Assembly: GCF_000023205.1 (NCBI RefSeq)
Contig: NC_012803.1
Span: 1,290,001 to 1,322,000, forward strand
DNA from: Micrococcus luteus NCTC 2665
GTDB lineage: Bacteria; Actinomycetota; Actinomycetes; Actinomycetales; Micrococcaceae
Reading direction: 5' to 3'
Length of the DNA: 32,000 bases
Shown here: piece after piece, positions 12,951 through 24,492 of the stretch
Layout of the letters: each line of letters starts with the position of its first letter
Numbering within the stretch: position 1 is the first letter of the stretch
Notes under the pieces: model-generated
What the model saw: the letters and a program-made list of their open reading frames with translations, nothing else
Told to the model about the DNA's origin: nothing
Database searches by the model: none
Translations under genes and position numbers: made by a program

Positions 12951-12958
12951 CGTACGGC
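12951..12958. repeat. target-site duplication of IS256 copy A (CGTACGGC), left copy
   Basis: It is identical to 14384-14391 and directly abuts the IS end. The preceding T also matches, so a 9-bp duplication is possible. Confidence 0.75.
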
Positions 12959-14383
12959 GGTCAAGTCCCGAGTAGTGGTGTAACGCTCTGATCCTCCATT
13001 GGTGCTGTTAGGCGCTGAGTTCGAGGGTGGTTTCCGGTTCGGCGTTCACCTCGTTCCCGGTGTCGTCCACGGTGGTGAGGCGGCAGCGGGCCAACACCTC
13101 GAGGCCGAGGTAGCGGCGGCCCTCGGCCCACTCATCGGTCTGCTCAGCCAGCACCGCCCCGACCAGGCGCACGATCGCTGCCCGGTTCGGGAAGATGCCC
13201 ACGGCGTCGGTGCGACGCCGGATCTCGCGGTTGAGCCGTTCGGCCGGGTTGTTCGACCAGATCTGGGTCCACACGTCCTTGGGGAACGTGGTGAACGCCA
13301 GGATGTCCGCCCGGGCACCATCGAGGTGTTCGGCCACCGCGGGCAGCTTTTCGCTGACGTAGTCCAGCAGCCGGTCGAACTGGGCGTCCACGCTGGCGGC
13401 GTCGGGCTGGTCATACACCGAGTGCAGCATGGCCTTCACGGCCGGCCACATGGACTTGGGGGTGATGCCCATCAGGTTCGCCGCGTAGTGGGTCCGGCAC
13501 CGCTGCCAGGTCGCTCCGGGCAGGTTCGCGGCGATGGCGTCCTTGAGCCCGGTGTGGGCGTCGGAAGTGACCAGGCGGACTCCGGTCAGGCCCCGGGCCA
13601 CCAGGTCGGCGAAGAACTCGTTCCACGCCGACCCCGTCTCCGAGGTGGCCACCCGCAGGCCGAGGACCTCGCGGTGGCCGTCACCATTGACCCCGGTGGC
13701 CAGCAGCACCACGGCGTTGACCACCCGGCCGCCCTCGCGGACCTTCATGCTCAGCGCGTCGGCGGCCACGAACGTGAACGGCCCAGCCTCCCCGAGCGGG
13801 CGATGACGGAAGGACTCGACCTGCTCGTCCAGCTCGGTGGCCATCCGCGAGACCTGGGACTTCGACAGCGCGTTGATCCCGAGGGTCTTGACCAGTTTGT
13901 CCATCCGCCGGGTCGAGACCCCGGCCAGGTAGCAGTCGGCGACCACCGTGATCAGCGCGGATTCGGCCCTTTTGCGGCGCTCGAGCAGCCACTCCGGGAA
14001 GTACGTGCCCGACCTGAGTTTGGGGATCGCCACGTCCAGGGTCCCGACCCGGGTGTCCAGGTCCCGGTGCCGGTACCCGTTGCGCTGGGTAGCTCGGCCC
14101 GGGGTGGGTTTACCCCATTCGGCGCCGACCACCGCGTCGGCGTCAGCGGAGAGCAGGGAGTTGATCACGGTCTGCAGCAACGAACGCATCAAATCCGGGG
14201 ATGCTTCGGACAGGGCTTCGCCGAGCAGGCCGGCAGGGTCGACAATATGAGGAGCGGTCATCGTGATGACTCCGTTCGAGGATTCTGTGGAAGGTTGACT
14301 CGAAGGATCACACGGTGGCCGCGTCCACATCCGGAACGACGTGCCCAGTCACCGTGCGCTACACCACTCTATGGGGCACTACT
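12959..14383 (-). mobile_element. IS256-family insertion sequence, copy A (about 1425 bp)
   Basis: It contains a Mutator/IS256 transposase gene. The imperfect terminal inverted repeats are GGTCAAGTCCCGAGTAGTGGTGTAACGC and AGTAGTGCCCCATAGAGTGGTGTAGCGC, read inward from each end. It is flanked by an 8-bp direct repeat. Boundaries are +/-1 bp. Confidence 0.9.
13008..14261 (-). CDS. IS256-family (Mutator-type) transposase
   Basis: 417 aa when started at MTAPHIVDP, the same start as copy B. Motifs include GYRHRDLDTRVGTLDVAIPKLR, DGHREVLG, SDAHTGLKDAI, WQRCRTHY and NPAERLNREIRRR. Confidence 0.95.
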   Translation of the reverse strand: MTAPHIVDPAGLLGEALSEASPDLMRSLLQTVINSLLSADADAVVGAEWGKPTPGRATQRNGYRHRDLDTRVGTLDVAIPKLRSGTYFPEWLLERRKRAESALITVVADCYLAGVSTRRMDKLVKTLGINALSKSQVSRMATELDEQVESFRHRPLGEAGPFTFVAADALSMKVREGGRVVNAVVLLATGVNGDGHREVLGLRVATSETGSAWNEFFADLVARGLTGVRLVTSDAHTGLKDAIAANLPGATWQRCRTHYAANLMGITPKSMWPAVKAMLHSVYDQPDAASVDAQFDRLLDYVSEKLPAVAEHLDGARADILAFTTFPKDVWTQIWSNNPAERLNREIRRRTDAVGIFPNRAAIVRLVGAVLAEQTDEWAEGRRYLGLEVLARCRLTTVDDTGNEVNAEPETTLELSA

Positions 14384-14391
14384 CGTACGGC
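14384..14391. repeat. target-site duplication of IS256 copy A (CGTACGGC), right copy
   Basis: It is identical to 12951-12958 and directly abuts the other IS end. Confidence 0.75.
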
Positions 14392-19209: not shown

Positions 19210-20904
19210 ATGAGCACCACCGTGAATGAGTTCCAGCCGGCGACCACGACCGGCCGCATCGCGAACTTCGTCGACACCCGCATGGGCATGTCGCCGATCG
19301 TGAAGTTCTTCGGCCGCAAGATCTTCCCGGACCACTGGACGTTCATGTTCGGCGAGGTCGCCCTGTACAGCTTTGTCATCCTGCTGCTGTCCGGCGCATT
19401 CCTCACCCTCTTCTTCGACCCCTCCATGTCCGAGGTCGTCTACGAGGGGGCCTACGCCCCGCTGCGCGGCATCGAGATGTCCGCGGCCTACGCTTCGACC
19501 CTCGACATCTCGTTCGACGTGCGCGGCGGTCTGTTCATGCGCCAGCTGCACCACTGGGCCGCGCTGATGTTCGTGGCGGCCATGTCCGTGCACATGCTGC
19601 GCGTGTTCTTCACCGGCGCGTTCCGTCGCCCGCGTGAGCTGAACTGGCTGGTCGGCTGCTTCCTGCTGATGGCCGGCTGGGCCGCCGGCTTCACCGGCTA
19701 CTCCCTGCCCGATGAGGTGCTCTCCGGCAACGGCCTGCGCATCATCGACGGCATCCTGAAGGCGCTGCCCCTCGTGGGCACCTATCTCTCCGCCTTCTTC
19801 TTCGGCGGCGAGTTCCCCGGCCATTCGGTCATCGGCCGCCTGTACGCCCTGCACATCATGATCGTGCCGGCCGCCATCCTGCTGCTGATCGGCATCCACC
19901 TGTTCATGGTCGTCGTGCACAAGCACACCCAGTACCCGGGCCCGGGCCGCACCGAGGACAACGTGGTCGGCTATCCGGTGGGCCCCGTGTACGCAGCCAA
20001 GGCCGGCGGCTTCTTCTTCATCGTGTTCGGTGTGCTCGCGCTCATCGCCTCCACGGTGACGATCAACGCCAACTGGTACTACGGCCCGTACGATCCGTCC
20101 CCGGTGCAGGCCGGCACCCAGCCTGACTGGTACATCGGCGTGTTCGACGGCGCCCTGCGCCTGATGCCGGGCATGATCGGCGACTTCTCCTTCCTCTGGA
20201 ACATCCCCATGCCGTGGGGCTCCTCGGTCTCGCTGCCCATGGGCGTGCTCGTGCCGCTGATCCCGGTCGGCGTCCTGCTCGTCGGCATGTGCGCCTGGCC
20301 GTGGATCGAGCGCTGGATCACCAAGGACGACACCGAGCACCACCTGCTCGACCGTCCGCGCAACGCCCCGGCCCGCACGGGCATCGGCGTGGCCGCCGTC
20401 GTCTGGTACTGCGTCATGTGGGCGGCCGCCTCCTCGGACCTCATCGCCACCCACTTCCACCTCTCCCTGAACGACGTGCTGTACGTGCTGCGCGCGCTGT
20501 TCTTCCTCGGCCCGGTGATCGCCTTCATCGTGACCCGCCGTATCTGCCTGTCCCTGCAGCGCAAGGACCGTGAGCTGGTGCTCCACGGCCTCGAGACCGG
20601 CGTCATCGAGATGTCCCCCGAGGGCGGCTTCCACGAGCGTCACCGCCAGCTGACCGACTACGAGCTGTACCGCCTGGTGGCCTTCGAGGACCGTCGCCCG
20701 GTGCCGGCCATCCCCGGCCCCAACGGCAAGGTGGGCATGCTGGAGAAGGTCCGTGCCGGCCTGAACCGCATGTTCTACCAGGAGCGCGTCGCCCCGGTCT
20801 CCCGCGAGGAGCTGGTGGAGGCCCGCACCCACGGGCAGCACGGCCACGAGGAGCACCCCGTCGAGCTCGGACACGGCTCGGACGCTCCTCATCTGGAGCG
20901 CTGA
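19210..20904 (+). CDS. qcrB: cytochrome bc1 complex cytochrome b subunit
   Basis: 564 aa and polytopic. The segments RQLHHWAALMFVAAMSVHMLRVFFTGAFR and YALHIMIVPA carry the haem-b His ligands. The start is 6 nt after the qcrA stop. Confidence 0.9.
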   Translation: MSTTVNEFQPATTTGRIANFVDTRMGMSPIVKFFGRKIFPDHWTFMFGEVALYSFVILLLSGAFLTLFFDPSMSEVVYEGAYAPLRGIEMSAAYASTLDISFDVRGGLFMRQLHHWAALMFVAAMSVHMLRVFFTGAFRRPRELNWLVGCFLLMAGWAAGFTGYSLPDEVLSGNGLRIIDGILKALPLVGTYLSAFFFGGEFPGHSVIGRLYALHIMIVPAAILLLIGIHLFMVVVHKHTQYPGPGRTEDNVVGYPVGPVYAAKAGGFFFIVFGVLALIASTVTINANWYYGPYDPSPVQAGTQPDWYIGVFDGALRLMPGMIGDFSFLWNIPMPWGSSVSLPMGVLVPLIPVGVLLVGMCAWPWIERWITKDDTEHHLLDRPRNAPARTGIGVAAVVWYCVMWAAASSDLIATHFHLSLNDVLYVLRALFFLGPVIAFIVTRRICLSLQRKDRELVLHGLETGVIEMSPEGGFHERHRQLTDYELYRLVAFEDRRPVPAIPGPNGKVGMLEKVRAGLNRMFYQERVAPVSREELVEARTHGQHGHEEHPVELGHGSDAPHLER

Positions 20905-20925
20905 CCCCGGTCGGCTGATCCCCTG

Positions 20926-20963
20926 CGAAGGGCCCCGCGCACCATGGTGCGCGGGGCCCTTCG
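20926..20963 (+). terminator. qcrCAB operon terminator hairpin
   Basis: A perfect 38-nt palindrome CGAAGGGCCCCGCGCACCATGGTGCGCGGGGCCCTTCG lies 22 nt after the qcrB stop. There is no U-tract, as is common in actinobacteria. Confidence 0.7.
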
Positions 20964-21030
20964 GCGTCCCGGGGCGGGCCGCCCGAGGTCGTAGCGGGCG
21001 CCATGAGGGGGTCCAGCGCCCTGCCCCCGT

Positions 21031-21036
21031 TACCTT
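21031..21036 (+). promoter_or_regulatory. candidate -10 hexamer TACCTT at the start of the IS110 left end
   Basis: It fits the actinobacterial TANNNT consensus. No -35 is present upstream in the integrated state, but one is supplied by the right end if the ends are abutted. It lies about 9 nt upstream of the first hairpin. Confidence 0.35.
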
Positions 21037-21044
21037 CTTCGTGG

Positions 21045-21228
21045 CTCCTGGATCCGGCAGGATCAGGGAGTGCTGGCCGGCCGGTCCTGGGCATGATCGT
21101 TTGCCCCCAGTCATCCATGATCCGGGGGGTGTTGTCACCCAGGACCGGTCCGGTGGTCACGGATCGCTGATAGAGGCAGGACCCGGCTGACAAGGGCCTT
21201 CGTAACGTGGATGCCGAGCGTGATCACC
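21045..21228 (+). ncRNA. candidate IS110 bridge RNA (5' stem-loop + two internal-loop hairpins)
   Basis: Hairpin 21045-21070 pairs CTCCTGGATCC with GGATCAGGGAG around a GGCA loop. Hairpin 21081-21148 has a perfect 11-bp stem CCGGTCCTGGG/CCCAGGACCGG. Hairpin 21152-21228 has a 10-bp stem GGTGGTCACG/CGTGATCACC with one G.U pair. Interior segments match the element junctions; details are in the findings. Confidence 0.5.
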
Positions 21229-21275
21229 TCCCGGCCGGCCAGCACACGCCACCGGCGCACCAGAAGGGAACGATC

Positions 21276-22502
21276 ATGACAGCACAGCAGCACCCGGCCG
21301 TGTTCATCGGCCTTGACGTCGGCAAGGCCGAGCACCACGCCGTGGCCCTCACCGCGGCCGGGAAAAAGGTCTACGACAAGGCCCTGCCCAACGACGAGAC
21401 CCGCCTACGCGGCATCCTCGACGAGCTCGCCCGCGCCCACGGGCCCGCGCTGCTCGTCGTCGATCAACCGGCCACGATCGGCGCCCTGCCCGTGGCCGTG
21501 GCCCAGGCCTGCGACGGCGTTGAGGTGGCGTACCTGCCCGGGCTGGCGATGCGACGGATCGCTGACCTGCACCCCGGCTCGGCCAAGACCGACGCCAAGG
21601 ACGCGGCGATCATCGCTGAAGCAGCCCGCACGATGCCCCATACGCTGCGCTCCATCCGAGTCGATGAGGAACAGATCGCCGAGCTGGCCATGCTCGCCGG
21701 GTTCGATGACGACCTCGCCGCGCAGATCACCGCGACCTCGAACCGGCTGCGCGGACTCCTCACCCAGATCCACCCCGCGCTCGAGCGCGTGCTCGGGCCC
21801 AGGATCACCCACCCCGCCGTGGCAGACCTTCTCGGCCGCTACCCCACCCCGGCACAGCTCAGAACGGCTGGGCCGGGGCATGTGCGGGCCAGGCTGCGCA
21901 AGCACGCCCCACGCCTGGCCGCTTCTCTCACGGAACAGATCTTCCAAGCCCTGGACGAGCAGTCCGTGGTCGTGGCCGGCACGCAGGCCGCGGCCACCGT
22001 GGTCCCGATCCTGGCAGAACAGCTCGCCGGCCTGACCCGTCAGCGGGCCGGCCTGGCCTCCCAGGTGGAGGCTGCAGTGGAGGCCCACCCTCTTCACCCG
22101 GTCCTGATCTCGATGCCCGGAGTAGGGATCAGGACCGCCGCACGCATCCTCACTGAAGTTGTGGGCAAGGACTTCGTCGATGCCGGGCATCTGGCCTCCT
22201 ACGCCGGGATCGCCCCGGTCACCCGACGCTCCGGGACCTCGATCCGCGGAGAGCACGTAGCCCGGGGCGGGAACAAGCGACTGAAGCGGGCCCTGTTCCT
22301 CTCAGCGTTCGCTTCGCTGTCACACCCGCCTTCCAGGGCGTACTACGACCGCAAACGAGCCCAGGGCAAACGCCACAACCAGGCGCTGATCGCGCTGGCC
22401 CGGCGCCGCACGGACGTGCTCTACGCGATGCTCCGCGATGGCACCCTGTATCAAGATCCGACCGCCCCGCCAGCACCATCATCAGTCGCTCTCGCGGCTT
22501 GA
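21276..22502 (+). CDS. IS110-family transposase/recombinase (DEDD RuvC-like domain + C-terminal Tnp domain)
   Basis: ATG 21276 is preceded by GAAGGGAA, giving 408 aa. Motifs are VFIGLDVGKAEHH, SAKTDAKDAAIIA, SMPGVGIRTAARIL and GIAPVTRRSGTS (conserved Ser region). Confidence 0.9.
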   Translation: MTAQQHPAVFIGLDVGKAEHHAVALTAAGKKVYDKALPNDETRLRGILDELARAHGPALLVVDQPATIGALPVAVAQACDGVEVAYLPGLAMRRIADLHPGSAKTDAKDAAIIAEAARTMPHTLRSIRVDEEQIAELAMLAGFDDDLAAQITATSNRLRGLLTQIHPALERVLGPRITHPAVADLLGRYPTPAQLRTAGPGHVRARLRKHAPRLAASLTEQIFQALDEQSVVVAGTQAAATVVPILAEQLAGLTRQRAGLASQVEAAVEAHPLHPVLISMPGVGIRTAARILTEVVGKDFVDAGHLASYAGIAPVTRRSGTSIRGEHVARGGNKRLKRALFLSAFASLSHPPSRAYYDRKRAQGKRHNQALIALARRRTDVLYAMLRDGTLYQDPTAPPAPSSVALAA

Positions 22503-22504
22503 CG
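22499..22504 (+). promoter_or_regulatory. candidate outward-facing -35 hexamer TTGACG in the IS110 right end
   Basis: It overlaps the transposase stop codon. It lies 15 nt from the inferred right end, so end-joining would place it 16-18 nt upstream of TACCTT at 21031. Confidence 0.35.
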
Positions 22505-23051
22505 AAAACCATAGAGGCACCCCCCCGACTTGCCGGGTCGGCGAACTGCGCTGTGGGGTAGTCGTACGGCGGCCCCCTCGGGTGGGCCTGAGCAATGGTG
22601 CGCCTCGCTGGTCGCGGCCGACCGGTTCTGGCACGGACTGGCGTGCGTCCGGTCCGCGACGGCGGATGCTGGGCGGACGCAGGTGGCCTTCCTCGGGGGA
22701 CGTCCCGAGAGACTGCAGGAGACGGGCACCGTCGATGGTCTGGGTCCTCAAGCGGCTTTTCCTCCCACGCGGGCTCAAGAAGGTGAGCCGGTGCCCTGCC
22801 ATGGGGTGGGTGCTGCGACATCCGTTCATCCTCGGAGAGGAGTCCGCGCATCGGCCTCGCCCTCGCACACCACCGCCGCCTGTACCGTCCGCTGCGCCCG
22901 CCCACCACTTGTGCCCCACGACACCGGTTGCGCCCGGGCACGGTCGGACCTGGCGCCACCGGTCCGGAATCCTCCGCCTGCGAACTCCCGACAGCAGGGG
23001 AAGACCGCCGCCAGACGCCTCAGCGGGTCGCCGCCGCAGGCCGAGGCGCAC

Positions 23052-23059
23052 GGTGCACC
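23052..23059. repeat. target-site duplication of IS256 copy B (GGTGCACC), left copy
   Basis: It is identical to 24485-24492. The preceding C also matches. The 8-mer is itself a perfect palindrome. Confidence 0.75.
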
Positions 23060-24484
23060 AGTTGAGTCCCGCATAGTGGTGTAGCGCCCGGTGGTCGGGC
23101 ACGTCGTTCCAGACGTGGACGCGGCCACCGTGTGATCCTTCGAGTCAACCTCTCACAGAATCCTCGAACGGAGTCATCACGATGACCGCTCCTCATATTG
23201 TCGACCCTGCCGGCCTGCTCGGCGAAGCCCTGTCCGAAGCATCCCCGGATTTGATGCGTTCGTTGCTGCAGACCGTGATCAACTCCCTGCTCTCCGCTGA
23301 CGCCGACGCGGTGGTCGGCGCCGAATGGGGTAAACCCACCCCGGGCCGAGCTACCCAGCGCAACGGGTACCGGCACCGGGACCTGGACACCCGGGTCGGG
23401 ACCCTGGACGTGGCGATCCCCAAACTCAGGTCGGGCACGTACTTCCCGGAGTGGCTGCTCGAGCGCCGCAAAAGGGCCGAATCCGCGCTGATCACGGTGG
23501 TCGCCGACTGCTACCTGGCCGGGGTCTCGACCCGGCGGATGGACAAACTGGTCAAGACCCTCGGGATCAACGCGCTGTCGAAGTCCCAGGTCTCGCGGAT
23601 GGCCACCGAGCTGGACGAGCAGGTCGAGTCCTTCCGTCATCGCCCGCTCGGGGAGGCTGGGCCGTTCACGTTCGTGGCCGCCGACGCGCTGAGCATGAAG
23701 GTCCGCGAGGGCGGCCGGGTGGTCAACGCCGTGGTGCTGCTGGCCACCGGGGTCAATGGTGACGGCCACCGCGAGGTCCTCGGCCTGCGGGTGGCCACCT
23801 CGGAGACGGGGTCGGCGTGGAACGAGTTCTTCGCCGACCTGGTGGCCCGGGGCCTGACCGGAGTCCGCCTGGTCACTTCCGACGCCCACACCGGGCTCAA
23901 GGACGCCATCGCCGCGAACCTGCCCGGAGCGACCTGGCAGCGGTGCCGGACCCACTACGCGGCGAACCTGATGGGCATCACCCCCAAGTCCATGTGGCCG
24001 GCCGTGAAGGCCATGCTGCACTCGGTGTATGACCAGCCCGACGCCGCCAGCGTGGACGCCCAGTTCGACCGGCTGCTGGACTACGTCAGCGAAAAGCTGC
24101 CCGCGGTGGCCGAACACCTCGATGGTGCCCGGGCGGACATCCTGGCGTTCACCACGTTCCCCAAGGACGTGTGGACCCAGATCTGGTCGAACAACCCGGC
24201 CGAACGGCTCAACCGCGAGATCCGGCGTCGCACCGACGCCGTGGGCATCTTCCCGAACCGGGCAGCGATCGTGCGCCTGGTCGGGGCGGTGCTGGCTGAG
24301 CAGACCGATGAGTGGGCCGAGGGCCGCCGCTACCTCGGCCTCGAGGTGTTGGCCCGCTGCCGCCTCACCACCGTGGACGACACCGGGAACGAGGTGAACG
24401 CCGAACCGGAAACCACCCTCGAACTCAGCGCCTAACAGCACCAATGGAGGATCAGAGCGTTACACCACTACTCGGGACTTGACC
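23060..24484 (+). mobile_element. IS256-family insertion sequence, copy B (about 1425 bp), inverted relative to copy A
   Basis: The length and transposase are the same as copy A. The ends are AGTTGAGTCCCGCATAGTGGTGTAGCGC ... GCGTTACACCACTACTCGGGACTTGACC. It is flanked by an 8-bp direct repeat. Confidence 0.9.
23182..24435 (+). CDS. IS256-family (Mutator-type) transposase
   Basis: The 417-aa translation is identical to the copy A transposase. Confidence 0.95.
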   Translation: MTAPHIVDPAGLLGEALSEASPDLMRSLLQTVINSLLSADADAVVGAEWGKPTPGRATQRNGYRHRDLDTRVGTLDVAIPKLRSGTYFPEWLLERRKRAESALITVVADCYLAGVSTRRMDKLVKTLGINALSKSQVSRMATELDEQVESFRHRPLGEAGPFTFVAADALSMKVREGGRVVNAVVLLATGVNGDGHREVLGLRVATSETGSAWNEFFADLVARGLTGVRLVTSDAHTGLKDAIAANLPGATWQRCRTHYAANLMGITPKSMWPAVKAMLHSVYDQPDAASVDAQFDRLLDYVSEKLPAVAEHLDGARADILAFTTFPKDVWTQIWSNNPAERLNREIRRRTDAVGIFPNRAAIVRLVGAVLAEQTDEWAEGRRYLGLEVLARCRLTTVDDTGNEVNAEPETTLELSA

Positions 24485-24492
24485 GGTGCACC
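24485..24492. repeat. target-site duplication of IS256 copy B (GGTGCACC), right copy
   Basis: It is identical to 23052-23059 and abuts the IS right end. Confidence 0.75.

What the first reader, a model, noticed from the sequence alone, without database searches (positions are those of the whole stretch)
21029..21275. Candidate bridge (guide) RNA in the left end of the IS110-family element, with loop segments matching both junctions
The 246 bp upstream of the IS110 recombinase gene are non-coding and fold by eye into three consecutive hairpins. The 5' stem-loop is 21045-21070. SL1 is 21081-21148, with a perfect 11-bp stem CCGGTCCTGGG/CCCAGGACCGG. SL2 is 21152-21228, with a 10-bp stem GGTGGTCACG/CGTGATCACC. 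Interior segments match the element boundaries. In SL1, TGCCCCC (21102-21108) is identical to 21022-21028 just outside the inferred left end. Also in SL1, GGGGGGTG (21124-21131) is the reverse complement of CACCCCCC (22518-22525) at the right junction. In SL2, ATAGAGGCA (21170-21178) is identical to 22511-22519, the last bases of the right end. Also in SL2, GTAACG (21202-21207) is the reverse complement of CGTTAC (21028-21033), the first bases of the left end. So the 5' side of each loop equals the top strand and the 3' side is complementary to it. SL1 reads the flanks (target) and SL2 reads the element ends (donor). As I recall it, this is the layout published for the IS621 bridge RNA: a target-binding loop followed by a donor-binding loop. 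The matches are short (6-9 nt) and the core dinucleotide cannot be fixed unambiguously (CA, CG or CC) because of the C-runs.
Basis: partly seen in the sequence, partly recalled or inferred. Interest (0 to 1): 0.85.

Follow-up and report, generated by a model that had tools for sequence, protein, structure and literature searches.

The report
Bridge RNA of an actinobacterial IS110
The 250 bases ahead of this insertion sequence's recombinase gene encode a typical IS110-family bridge (guide) RNA whose loops read the element's own ends and a run of C's in the host DNA; it is a real but ordinary member of a system described in 2024.

Summary

- **Recombinase:** the gene (21276-22502) passes NCBI's model "IS110 family RNA-guided transposase".
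- **Conservation:** the upstream non-coding region is conserved in 80 related elements from many actinobacterial genera.
- **Structure:** a 5' hairpin and two stem-loops with internal loops are kept by compensatory changes. 88-91% of cells pair, against 25-49% in slid controls, and 0/500 shuffles reach this.
- **Covariance model:** it finds one copy upstream of nearly every homologue.
- **Guides covary with DNA:** the loop-2 5' side tracks the right-end sequence and the loop-1 3' side tracks the right flank (0/5000 permutations each). The loop-1 5' side tracks the left flank in five variant elements.

- The mobile unit carries CCC, not a CC core, between the right-end A and the left-end G.
- The RNA extends to about 21245, closed by an enclosing helix.
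- No junction promoter is evident.
- No empty site was found.

Verdict: a new member of a known kind, of low-to-moderate interest.

The parts
21018..21028 (+). Left junction. Left target GCCCTGCC (21018-21025), then the CCC (21026-21028) that always precedes GTTAC. In my preferred register C21026 is target position 9 and C21027-21028 travel with the element.
   Evidence: The C-run 5' of GTTAC is never 2 long: counts are 3 in 19 loci, 4 in 23, 5 in 12, 6 in 7, 7 in 4 and 8 in 1. Supporting cases are the nested insertion L065 and the tandem junction L085.
21029..21036 (+). First bases of the left end, GTTACCTT. This is the right-donor sequence read by the loop-2 3' guide. It contains TACCTT (21031-21036), a possible -10-like hexamer.
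   Evidence: Homology with relatives starts here. G1, T2, T3, C5, T7 and T8 are invariant in 39 sequences. The -10 reading is inference only.
21045..21070 (+). 5' stem-loop of the bridge RNA.
   Evidence: In 61 distinct relatives this region forms a hairpin of varying sequence, with mean dG -11.8 against -6.9 kcal/mol for shuffles.
21070..21245 (+). Enclosing helix GTGCTGGCCGG (21070-21080) / CCGGCCAGCAC (21235-21245), which closes both binding loops. It marks the minimal 3' extent of the RNA.
   Evidence: 10 of 11 pairs show changes on both sides. 69% of cells pair in the MAFFT alignment and 81% in the model-fitted alignment.
21081..21148 (+). Target-binding loop (TBL). Its stems are 21081-21091/21138-21148 and 21094-21097/21134-21137, with an apical hairpin at 21110-21121. 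The left target guide (LTG) is TTTGCCCCC(A) at 21100-21109. The right target guide (RTG) is UCCGGGGGGUG at 21121-21131.
   Evidence: Stem pairs are 96-97% paired with compensatory changes. RTG covaries with the right flank in L079, L060, L072, L066 and L069. LTG covaries with the left flank in L068, L072, L069, L079 and L060.
21152..21228 (+). Donor-binding loop (DBL). Its stems are 21152-21161/21219-21228 and 21164-21167/21213-21217, with an apical hairpin at 21178-21199. The left donor guide (LDG) is AUAGAGGC at 21170-21177; A21178 is variable in relatives and closes the apical stem. The right donor guide (RDG) is GUAACG at 21202-21207, inside the invariant CGTAACGTGGATG at 21201-21213.
   Evidence: The LDG 8-mer equals the right-end 8-mer in relatives: own 7.82/8 against 7.02 for other pairings, 0/5000 permutations. 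The stem is 92% paired, with 8-10 pairs compensatory. The apical hairpin is conserved as structure.
21276..22502 (+). IS110-family DEDD/Ser recombinase gene, 408 aa.
   Evidence: Pfam PF01548 (4.5e-48) and PF02371 (6e-19). NCBIfam NF033542 'IS110 family RNA-guided transposase', 229.8 bits against a cut-off of 140. The Tnp domain aligns to IS621 chain 8wt6_A at E = 1.1e-13, and the Ser of RRSG aligns with a Ser of the chain's ESGSS motif, which I take to be the catalytic S241.
22511..22520 (+). Right end. The left donor ATAGAGGC (22511-22518) is followed by A22519 and the first C of the run (22520). Together A and C are the donor 'core' AC in my preferred register. The stop codon is at 22500-22502, so the right non-coding end is only 17 nt.
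   Evidence: Homology among three M. luteus-type contexts and all relatives ends at ...GCA followed by C's.
22521..22529 (+). Right target CCCCCCGAC, read by the RTG as CCCCC-n-GA.
   Evidence: Three different contexts of the same element (window, L002-L004, L011) all read CCCCCC[C/A]GAC and then diverge. 50 distinct right flanks of elements with the GGGGGG guide have C-runs with a mode of 6-7, followed by G in 34 of 50.

Best explanation
Window 21045 to about 21245 (+ strand) encodes the bridge RNA of an intact IS110-group insertion sequence. The non-C body is G21029-A22519. The mobile unit is 1494 bp including three junction C's, whose frame cannot be fixed inside the C-runs.

The RNA has a 5' hairpin and two stem-loops with internal loops, all closed by an outer helix. 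By analogy with IS621, recombinase dimers bind each loop.

[quoted passage not shown] Together they select a site of the form TG-C(n)-GA.
[quoted passage not shown] The Ser/DEDD recombinase then exchanges the top strands just 3' of an invariant C. Position 9 is this C. Position 8 is A in the donor and free in the target.

**Shown here:** the structure, its conservation, and guide-DNA covariation. **Inferred from IS621 (PMC11208160, PMC11208158):** that the RNA is made, bound and used, and the cleavage position.
For: - **Recombinase family:**
- **Position and strand:** a long left end (247 nt) and a short right end (17 nt), as in the IS110 subgroup.
- **Structure:** 44 hand-drawn pairs on 39 sequences give 87.7% of cells paired, against 28-49% when partners are slid. 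32 pairs have changes on both sides, and 0/500 shuffles reach any measure. RNAalifold independently recovers both basal stems, with 22 compensatory pairs.
- **Covariance model:** it gives 81 hits in 452 kb, one just upstream of nearly every homologue on its strand. The window has a single hit, 21069-21246, at 174.9 bits. That alignment is 91.1% paired, 0/500.
- **Donor guide:** ATAGAGGC, ATAGGGGC, ATAGAAGC, ATAGGGAC, ATAAGGAC and ATAGGAGC in the loop each match the same 8-mer at that element's right end. The permutation test gives 0/5000.
- **Right target guide:** variant guides match their own right flanks. L079 is CACCCTG/CACCCTG, L060 CAAGGTG/CAAGGTG, L072 CAAATCA/CAAATCC, L066 CACCCC and L069 CACA. 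The permutation test gives 0/5000.
- **Left target guide:** in the five variant elements, 21 of 25 bases just upstream of the CCC match (L068 TTCAT and L072 CTCCT are 5/5).
- **Recent mobility:** a copy 99.8% identical sits in a different context (L011).
Against: - No transcript, binding or recombination data exist for this element.
- No Rfam family matches, and the published bridge-RNA models could not be run.
- No empty site was found, so junctions are inferred from relatives.
- The four guides do not read one common dinucleotide. The left junction reads ...CC|C and the right reads ...CA|C.
- Across all 68 left flanks, the LTG match excluding the CCC is only marginally better than permuted pairings (225/5000). 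Nineteen insertions have exactly three C's there; in 14 of them, all carrying a C-run-type LTG, nothing beyond those C's matches the LTG.
- No sigma-70-type promoter is seen in the integrated copy. With CCC in the junction, the right-end TTGACG would lie 20 nt from TACCTT.
- The unconstrained minimum-free-energy fold (-108.9 kcal/mol) differs from the bridge-like fold (-91.8). One reason is that the two target guides (C5 and G6) can pair with each other.
Confidence: 0.9

Rival explanations
1. The region is only the structured 5' leader of the recombinase mRNA, controlling translation or stability. On this reading the internal copies of the end sequences are sub-terminal DNA repeats bound by the protein, not RNA guides.
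For: The ribosome-binding site and ATG follow within 30 nt of the last helix, and no terminator separates them. Two DNA sites bound by one protein could also stay alike.
Against: The repeats lie in internal loops of a structure kept by compensatory changes. Loop 1 follows the host flanks, which are not part of the element and differ between variants. The strand logic (5' side equals the top strand, 3' side is complementary) is exactly that of IS621. The recombinase is a homologue of the RNA-guided enzyme.
Confidence: 0.04
2. It is a genuine bridge-RNA gene, but this copy is a fixed, no longer mobile resident of the qcrB downstream region, so the RNA has no present function here.
For: All ten retrieved contigs that encode the identical QcrB either carry the element at this site or end at or before it. 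No empty site was found in two metagenome scans. No promoter is seen in the integrated state.
Against: The ORF is intact and lies in a 90%-identity cluster of 213 member sequences whose representative is 100% identical over 99% of it. A copy 99.8% identical lies in another context (L011). The right flank differs between strains, which points to IS-mediated rearrangement. All guides still match this copy's own ends and flanks.
Confidence: 0.15
3. The loop/junction matches are chance matches in C/G-rich DNA.
For: The matches are short, and TGCCCCC occurs 7 times and CACCCCCC 4 times in the window.
Against: ATAGAGGC occurs only at the two predicted places. Guides covary with ends and flanks across relatives (0/5000 permutations).
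Confidence: 0.01

Closest known systems
IS621 bridge RNA (E. coli, IS110 subgroup; Durrant et al. 2024, PMC11208160; Hiraizumi et al. 2024, PMC11208158)
   Same: Both are encoded in the long left end upstream of a DEDD/Ser recombinase. Both have a 5' hairpin followed by a target-binding loop and then a donor-binding loop. The strand rule is the same: the 5' side equals the top strand and the 3' side is complementary. The LDG is 8 nt and the RTG starts at the crossover. The second crossover position is invariant and the first is looser.
   Different: - The recombinases are only distantly related: phmmer aligns only the Tnp domain, at E = 1e-13.
- The crossover bases are (A/N)C within a CCC, not CT.
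- The donor and target versions of position 8 differ. The RTG matches the donor's A, and only the LTG follows the target's base.
- The target loop is almost invariant across many genera (C-run targets), whereas in the IS621 set loop 1 is the variable one.
- An outer helix encloses both loops.
- No rebuilt sigma-70 junction promoter is evident.
IS1111-group bridge/seek RNAs (RNA in the right end; PMC11208160 section 12)
   Same: Same recombinase superfamily and the same guide principle.
   Different: There the RNA lies in a long right end with long sub-terminal inverted repeats. Here the right end is 17 nt and the RNA is in the left end.
ISPpu10 and ISPpu9 (IS110-family elements of Pseudomonas putida that insert in repeated extragenic sequences; abstracts)
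   Same: Both show a strongly fixed natural target that recurs many times in a genome.
   Different: Their targets are REP-type palindromes. Here the target is a homopolymeric C tract, sometimes in a hairpin loop (L031, L033).

Membership tests
IS110-family bridge RNA, IS110 subgroup (IS621 type) | Encoded in the same element as an IS110-family DEDD (RuvC-like) + Tnp (Ser) recombinase | tested here: met
   Pfam PF01548 and PF02371. NCBIfam NF033542 at 229.8 bits, above the cut-off of 140. IS621 chain 8wt6_A at E = 1.1e-13, with an aligned Ser that I take to be the catalytic one.
IS110-family bridge RNA, IS110 subgroup (IS621 type) | Lies in a long non-coding left end, same strand as and upstream of the recombinase gene; short right end | tested here: met
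   The left end is 247 nt (21029-21275) and the right end is 17 nt (22503-22519). The model hit is on the + strand at 21069-21246.
IS110-family bridge RNA, IS110 subgroup (IS621 type) | [quoted passage not shown] | tested here: met
   88-91% of cells pair, 30-32 pairs are compensatory, and 0/500 shuffles reach this.
IS110-family bridge RNA, IS110 subgroup (IS621 type) | Second loop, 5' side identical to the last bases of the right end (LDG-LD), covarying | tested here: met
   Six different 8-mers each equal their own right end. The permutation test gives 0/5000.
IS110-family bridge RNA, IS110 subgroup (IS621 type) | Second loop, 3' side complementary to the first bases of the left end (RDG-RD) | tested here: met
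   GTAACG pairs with CGTTAC in the window. Both partners are nearly invariant in the family (GTAAC/GTTAC, or ATAAC/GTTAT in the Glutamicibacter group, which is one covarying change).
IS110-family bridge RNA, IS110 subgroup (IS621 type) | First loop, 3' side complementary to the right flank (RTG-RT), covarying | tested here: met
   L079, L060, L072, L066 and L069 carry variant guides that match their own flanks. The permutation test gives 0/5000. L068, L037 and L055 are imperfect.
IS110-family bridge RNA, IS110 subgroup (IS621 type) | First loop, 5' side identical to the left flank (LTG-LT), covarying | tested here: met
   In five variant elements, 21 of 25 bases next to the CCC match. Over all loci the signal is weak (91/5000 including the C's, 225/5000 excluding them).
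IS110-family bridge RNA, IS110 subgroup (IS621 type) | One core dinucleotide, the same in donor and target, read by all four guides and flanking the element on both sides | tested here: inconclusive
   The left junction reads NC|CC-GTTAC and the right reads GCA|C. Only one C is common to all. An empty site is needed to settle this.
IS110-family bridge RNA, IS110 subgroup (IS621 type) | [quoted passage not shown] | tested here: inconclusive
   No promoter is seen in the integrated copy. A TTGACG/A conserved in most relatives lies 14-15 nt from the right-end terminus. With the CCC junction it is 19-20 nt from TACCTT, which is too far for a standard spacer.
IS110-family bridge RNA, IS110 subgroup (IS621 type) | Recognised by the published IS110 bridge-RNA covariance models | not testable with these tools
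   Those models are not on hand. Rfam 15 gives no relevant hit even at E = 10. I cannot tell whether Rfam holds such a family.
IS110-family bridge RNA, IS110 subgroup (IS621 type) | RNA is expressed, binds the recombinase and is required for recombination | not testable with these tools
   Experimental.
IS1111-group bridge/seek RNA | RNA encoded in a long right end downstream of the recombinase; long sub-terminal inverted repeats | tested here: not met
   The right end is 17 nt. The only model hit is upstream of the gene.

The most novel reading that the evidence does not exclude
This actinobacterial clade may have frozen its target loop on homopolymeric C tracts. Three things would follow.
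1. The two target guides (C5 and G6) are complementary to each other, so the target loop can close on itself in the free RNA. This is a possible built-in brake.
2. The DNA that encodes the right target guide is itself a perfect target half-site. Elements therefore insert into, and destroy, each other's bridge-RNA genes, as seen once in L065.
3. Donor and target need share only one base at the crossover. That fits single (top) strand transfer rather than a symmetric two-strand exchange.
Probability: 0.25. Interest if true: 0.5.

Novelty: new member of a known kind. Interest (0 to 1): 0.3.

Why it matters
It shows that the scan can recognise a guide RNA from raw sequence. It also adds a well-documented actinobacterial clade to a family known mostly from Proteobacteria: about 70 distinct RNAs, with structure, guides and junctions.

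For bridge-recombinase biology the useful details are the following.
- The target is natural and almost invariant (C tracts).
- Position 8 is read differently by the two target guides.
- Many natural insertions match only the right half of the target. This agrees with the 'half-match' and top-strand-transfer preprints (10.64898/2026.08.31.748434; 10.1101/2025.10.25.684509).

None of this changes the known mechanism.

Tried and rejected
- **Rfam:** a scan of 20800-22800 at E up to 10 returned only noise.
- **Empty site, four routes, all without result:**
  1. Contigs encoding the identical QcrB. All either carry the IS at this site or end at or before it.
  2. QcrB homologues at 94% and 84% identity. 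They have no IS, but their intergenic DNA cannot be aligned and a different gene follows.
  3. Two exact-pattern metagenome scans for the window site and the L011 site, with 0 hits each.
  4. Neighbours of the L011 copy through the HPP protein. The contigs are too short or rearranged.
- **Core hypotheses considered and dropped:**
Rejected because the C-run left of GTTAC is never 2 long, the tandem junction in L085 has CCC, the nested insertion in L065 adds three C's, and five non-C-run targets start with CA on the right but have CC on the left.
  - CG on the left with CA on the right, and a plain insertion with no shared base. Both predict the wrong C counts in L065.
- **Right end extended to include the C-run.** Rejected because variant elements have no C-run and their flanks follow their own RTG.
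- **Rebuilt junction promoter TTGACG-17-TACCTT.** The spacing works only without the CCC, so I do not claim it.

Full report
**1. What is there**

The window matches record LS483396.1 (assembly GCA_900475555.1) at 100% over the 1.8 kb compared, with the same gene order. I recall this record as Micrococcus luteus NCTC 2665, but that is from memory.
- qcrB (19210-20904; Pfam cytochrome b) is followed by a terminator-like palindrome.
- At 21029 begins a stretch that ends at 22519 and holds one ORF, 21276-22502.
- That ORF is an IS110-family recombinase. It hits Pfam DEDD_Tnp_IS110 (4.5e-48) and Transposase_20 (6e-19), and NCBIfam NF033542 'IS110 family RNA-guided transposase' at 229.8 bits against a cut-off of 140.
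- Its Tnp domain aligns to the solved IS621 recombinase (8wt6_A, E = 1.1e-13). The Ser of RRSG aligns with a Ser of the chain's ESGSS motif, which I take to be the catalytic one.
- An IS256-family element follows at 23057-24485.

**2. The observation**

- The region folds better than every one of 200 shuffles (z = -4.0), and the centroid contains both stem-loops.
- ATAGAGGC occurs in the window only at 21170 and 22511.

**3. Ends of the element**

Three contexts of nearly the same element were compared: the window; L002-L004, which share the left flank but have a different right flank; and L011, where both flanks differ and the element is 99.8% identical.
- Identity starts at ...CCC|GTTACC and ends at ATAGAGGCA|CCCCCC[C/A]GAC.
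- In 80 loci encoding recombinases 61-97% identical, DNA similarity of the left end begins 2-5 bases before G21029. That means only inside the C's.
- Every right end stops at ...GCA or ...ACA, followed in most cases by a C-run.

**4. Conserved structure**

- On 39 non-identical left ends, RNAalifold recovers the basal stems of both loops, with 22 compensatory pairs.
- A hand-drawn structure was tested. It comprises an outer helix, the loop-1 stems and apical hairpin, and the loop-2 stems. It gives 87.7% paired cells against 28-49% when partners are slid by 1-3 columns. 32 of 44 pairs change on both sides, and 0 of 500 shuffles reach any measure.
- A covariance model built from it finds 81 matches in 452 kb. 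There is one just upstream of nearly every recombinase homologue on the same strand. The window has a single hit, 21069-21246 (174.9 bits, E = 3.5e-31).
- On that alignment, which is fitted to the model and so leans towards it, 91.1% of cells pair.
- The 5' hairpin and the hairpin capping loop 2 vary too much in length to align. Each distinct sequence nevertheless folds one: mean dG is -11.8 against -6.9 for shuffles, and -10.1 against -6.0.

**5. Guides**

The published rule is as follows (PMC11208160). [quoted passage not shown] The 3' side pairs with the top strand (4-7 nt). Loop 1 reads the target and loop 2 reads the donor.

*Left donor guide (LDG).* The 8-mer ATAGAGGC (21170-21177) varies among relatives: ATAGGGGC, ATAGAAGC, ATAGGGAC, ATAAGGAC, ATAGGAGC. 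Each time it equals the 8 bases before the final A of that element's right end.
- Own pairs score 7.82/8 against 7.02 for other pairings, with 0/5000 permutations as high.
- The ninth RNA base (A21178) varies freely while the DNA is always A. In IS621 the LDG is also 8 nt and stops at position 8.

*Right donor guide (RDG).* GUAACG pairs with CGTTAC. Both are nearly invariant, and the Glutamicibacter group changes both together (ATAAC with GTTAT).

*Right target guide (RTG).* Most elements have GGGGGGUG and a right flank of C's, with run length peaking at 6-7 and G following in 34 of 50 cases. Elements with other guides have matching flanks:
- L079: CACCCTG against CACCCTG
- L060: CAAGGTG against CAAGGTG
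- L072: CAAATCA against CAAATCC
- L066: CACCCC
- L069: CACA
The permutation test gives 0/5000.

*Left target guide (LTG).* In the five variant elements, the five bases just left of an invariant CCC match the guide at 21 of 25 positions. L068 (TTCAT) and L072 (CTCCT) are perfect.
- Over all loci the signal is weak (225/5000).
- Nineteen insertions have exactly three C's on the left. In 14 of them, all with a C-run-type LTG, nothing beyond those C's matches the LTG.
- These look like right-half-only matches. A 2026 preprint describes half-match insertion for IS621.

**6. The junction: a correction**

Three lines of evidence bear on it.
- The C-run immediately left of GTTAC is 3 long in 19 loci, 4 in 23, 5 in 12, 6 in 7, 7 in 4 and 8 in 1. 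It is never 2.
- In L085 two copies sit head to tail, joined as ...ATAGGGGCA-CCC-GTTATC....
- In L065 an element has inserted into the G-run that encodes the RTG of another IS110 element. The host run reads G6 + G3, whereas intact relatives (L053, L056, L059) have G6.

So the mobile unit carries three C's between the right-end A and the left-end G. In the window it is 1494 bp. Because both flanks are C-runs it can be written 21026-22519 through 21029-22522.

Non-C-run targets start with CA on the right, so at most one of the three C's can lie on the right side.

In IS621 the top strands are cut just 3' of the core; position 9 is nearly invariant and position 8 is looser. The register that fits this best has four features:
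- Position 9 is the invariant C.
- Position 8 is A in the donor (A22519).
- Position 8 is free in the target, where the LTG follows it (T, G, A, T, T in the five variants).
- The RTG always carries the complement of the donor's A.

This is inference. Two preprints reporting mainly top-strand transfer would make such an asymmetry unproblematic.

**7. What I could not show**

- No empty site was found.
- No Rfam family matches, and the published models were not available.
- No sigma-70-type promoter is present in the integrated copy. A TTGAC(G/A) that most relatives keep in the right end would lie 19-20 nt from TACCTT across a CCC junction. I therefore do not claim the rebuilt promoter known from IS621.
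- TACCTT (21031-21036) lies 8 nt before the 5' hairpin and may serve as a -10 on its own. This is untested.
- The unconstrained fold of 21045-21246 (-108.9 kcal/mol) is not the bridge-like fold (-91.8). One reason is that C21104-21108 and G21124-21129 can pair.

**8. Comparison and verdict**

This is a bridge RNA of the IS110 subgroup. Seven defining features were tested and met, two were inconclusive (a common core dinucleotide and a junction promoter), and two are not testable here.
- Durrant et al. predicted bridge RNAs in 85.7% of ISfinder IS110s, and NCBI already names the protein 'RNA-guided'. The kind is therefore known, and this is a new, well-supported member.
- The clade-specific points are a nearly invariant target loop aimed at C tracts, the CCC junction with one shared base, an outer helix, and self-complementary target guides.
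- Interest is 0.3.

Noticed in passing
L065:760-2470 (Glutamicibacter uratoxydans, NZ_CP192736.1): One IS110 element has inserted, in opposite orientation, into the G6 run that encodes the right target guide of another IS110 element, splitting that element's bridge-RNA gene. The DNA that encodes an RTG is by construction a perfect right half-target, so such elements can hit each other's guide genes.
   Followed up: partly
L085:740-3730 (Glutamicibacter sp. 2E12): Two identical copies lie head to tail, joined by exactly CCC (…ATAGGGGCA-CCC-GTTATC…). This is either an insertion into the first copy's C-run or a junction-type dimer.
   Followed up: partly
window 22530-23056, compared with L002-L004: Strains with the identical qcrB and the same left junction have a completely different sequence to the right of the element; L002-L004 continue into a GH65 gene. 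This suggests a rearrangement at the IS, for example recombination between copies. The window stretch 22530-23056 has no Pfam hit in any long ORF.
   Followed up: partly
window 12958-14386 (-) and 23057-24485 (+): Two 1429-bp copies of an IS256-family (Transposase_mut) element, 99% identical and in inverted orientation, bracket the qcr region and the IS110 element.
   Followed up: no
window 21104-21108 and 21124-21129: The two target guides (CCCCC and GGGGGG) are complementary to each other. RNAalifold pairs them in the consensus, and the unconstrained minimum-free-energy fold is 17 kcal/mol more stable than the open, bridge-like fold.
   Followed up: partly
L060:938-2440 and L068:2241-3740 (two Acidimicrobiia MAGs): Two elements with different target loops and different left flanks share the same right flank, CAAGGTGCCGGGATCG. 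It matches the RTG of L060 but not that of L068. This may be recombination between copies or a shared larger unit.
   Followed up: no
L055:2272-3770 (Kocuria cellulosilytica): The variant RTG (reverse complement CCGCCTTCGA) matches the right flank 9/10, but only after four extra C's (CA-CCCC-CCGCCCTCGA). The recombinase ORF of this copy is broken.
   Followed up: no
L062:2241-2426: The donor loop carries a 7-nt tandem duplication (GCTAATAGCTAATAGGGGC) just 5' of the LDG.
   Followed up: no
L045 and L087: These elements are 1784 and 1913 bp long, against about 1455-1496 bp for the rest. The extra DNA lies between the recombinase stop and the right end.
   Followed up: no
L031 and L033 (Microbacterium sp. 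oral taxon 186), flanks of the element: The flanks form inverted repeats around the insertion point (CTCACCGCGCAT…ATGCGCGGTGAG and CGCTCAACGACC…GGTCGTTGAGCG). The C tract hit therefore lay in the loop of a hairpin or repeat unit, and L033 has further uninterrupted copies of the unit downstream.
   Followed up: no
window 20925-20962: A perfect 38-nt palindrome (CCCCGCGCACCATGGTGCGCGGGG core) lies right after the qcrB stop. It is probably the qcrB terminator, and the IS sits 66 nt beyond it.
   Followed up: no
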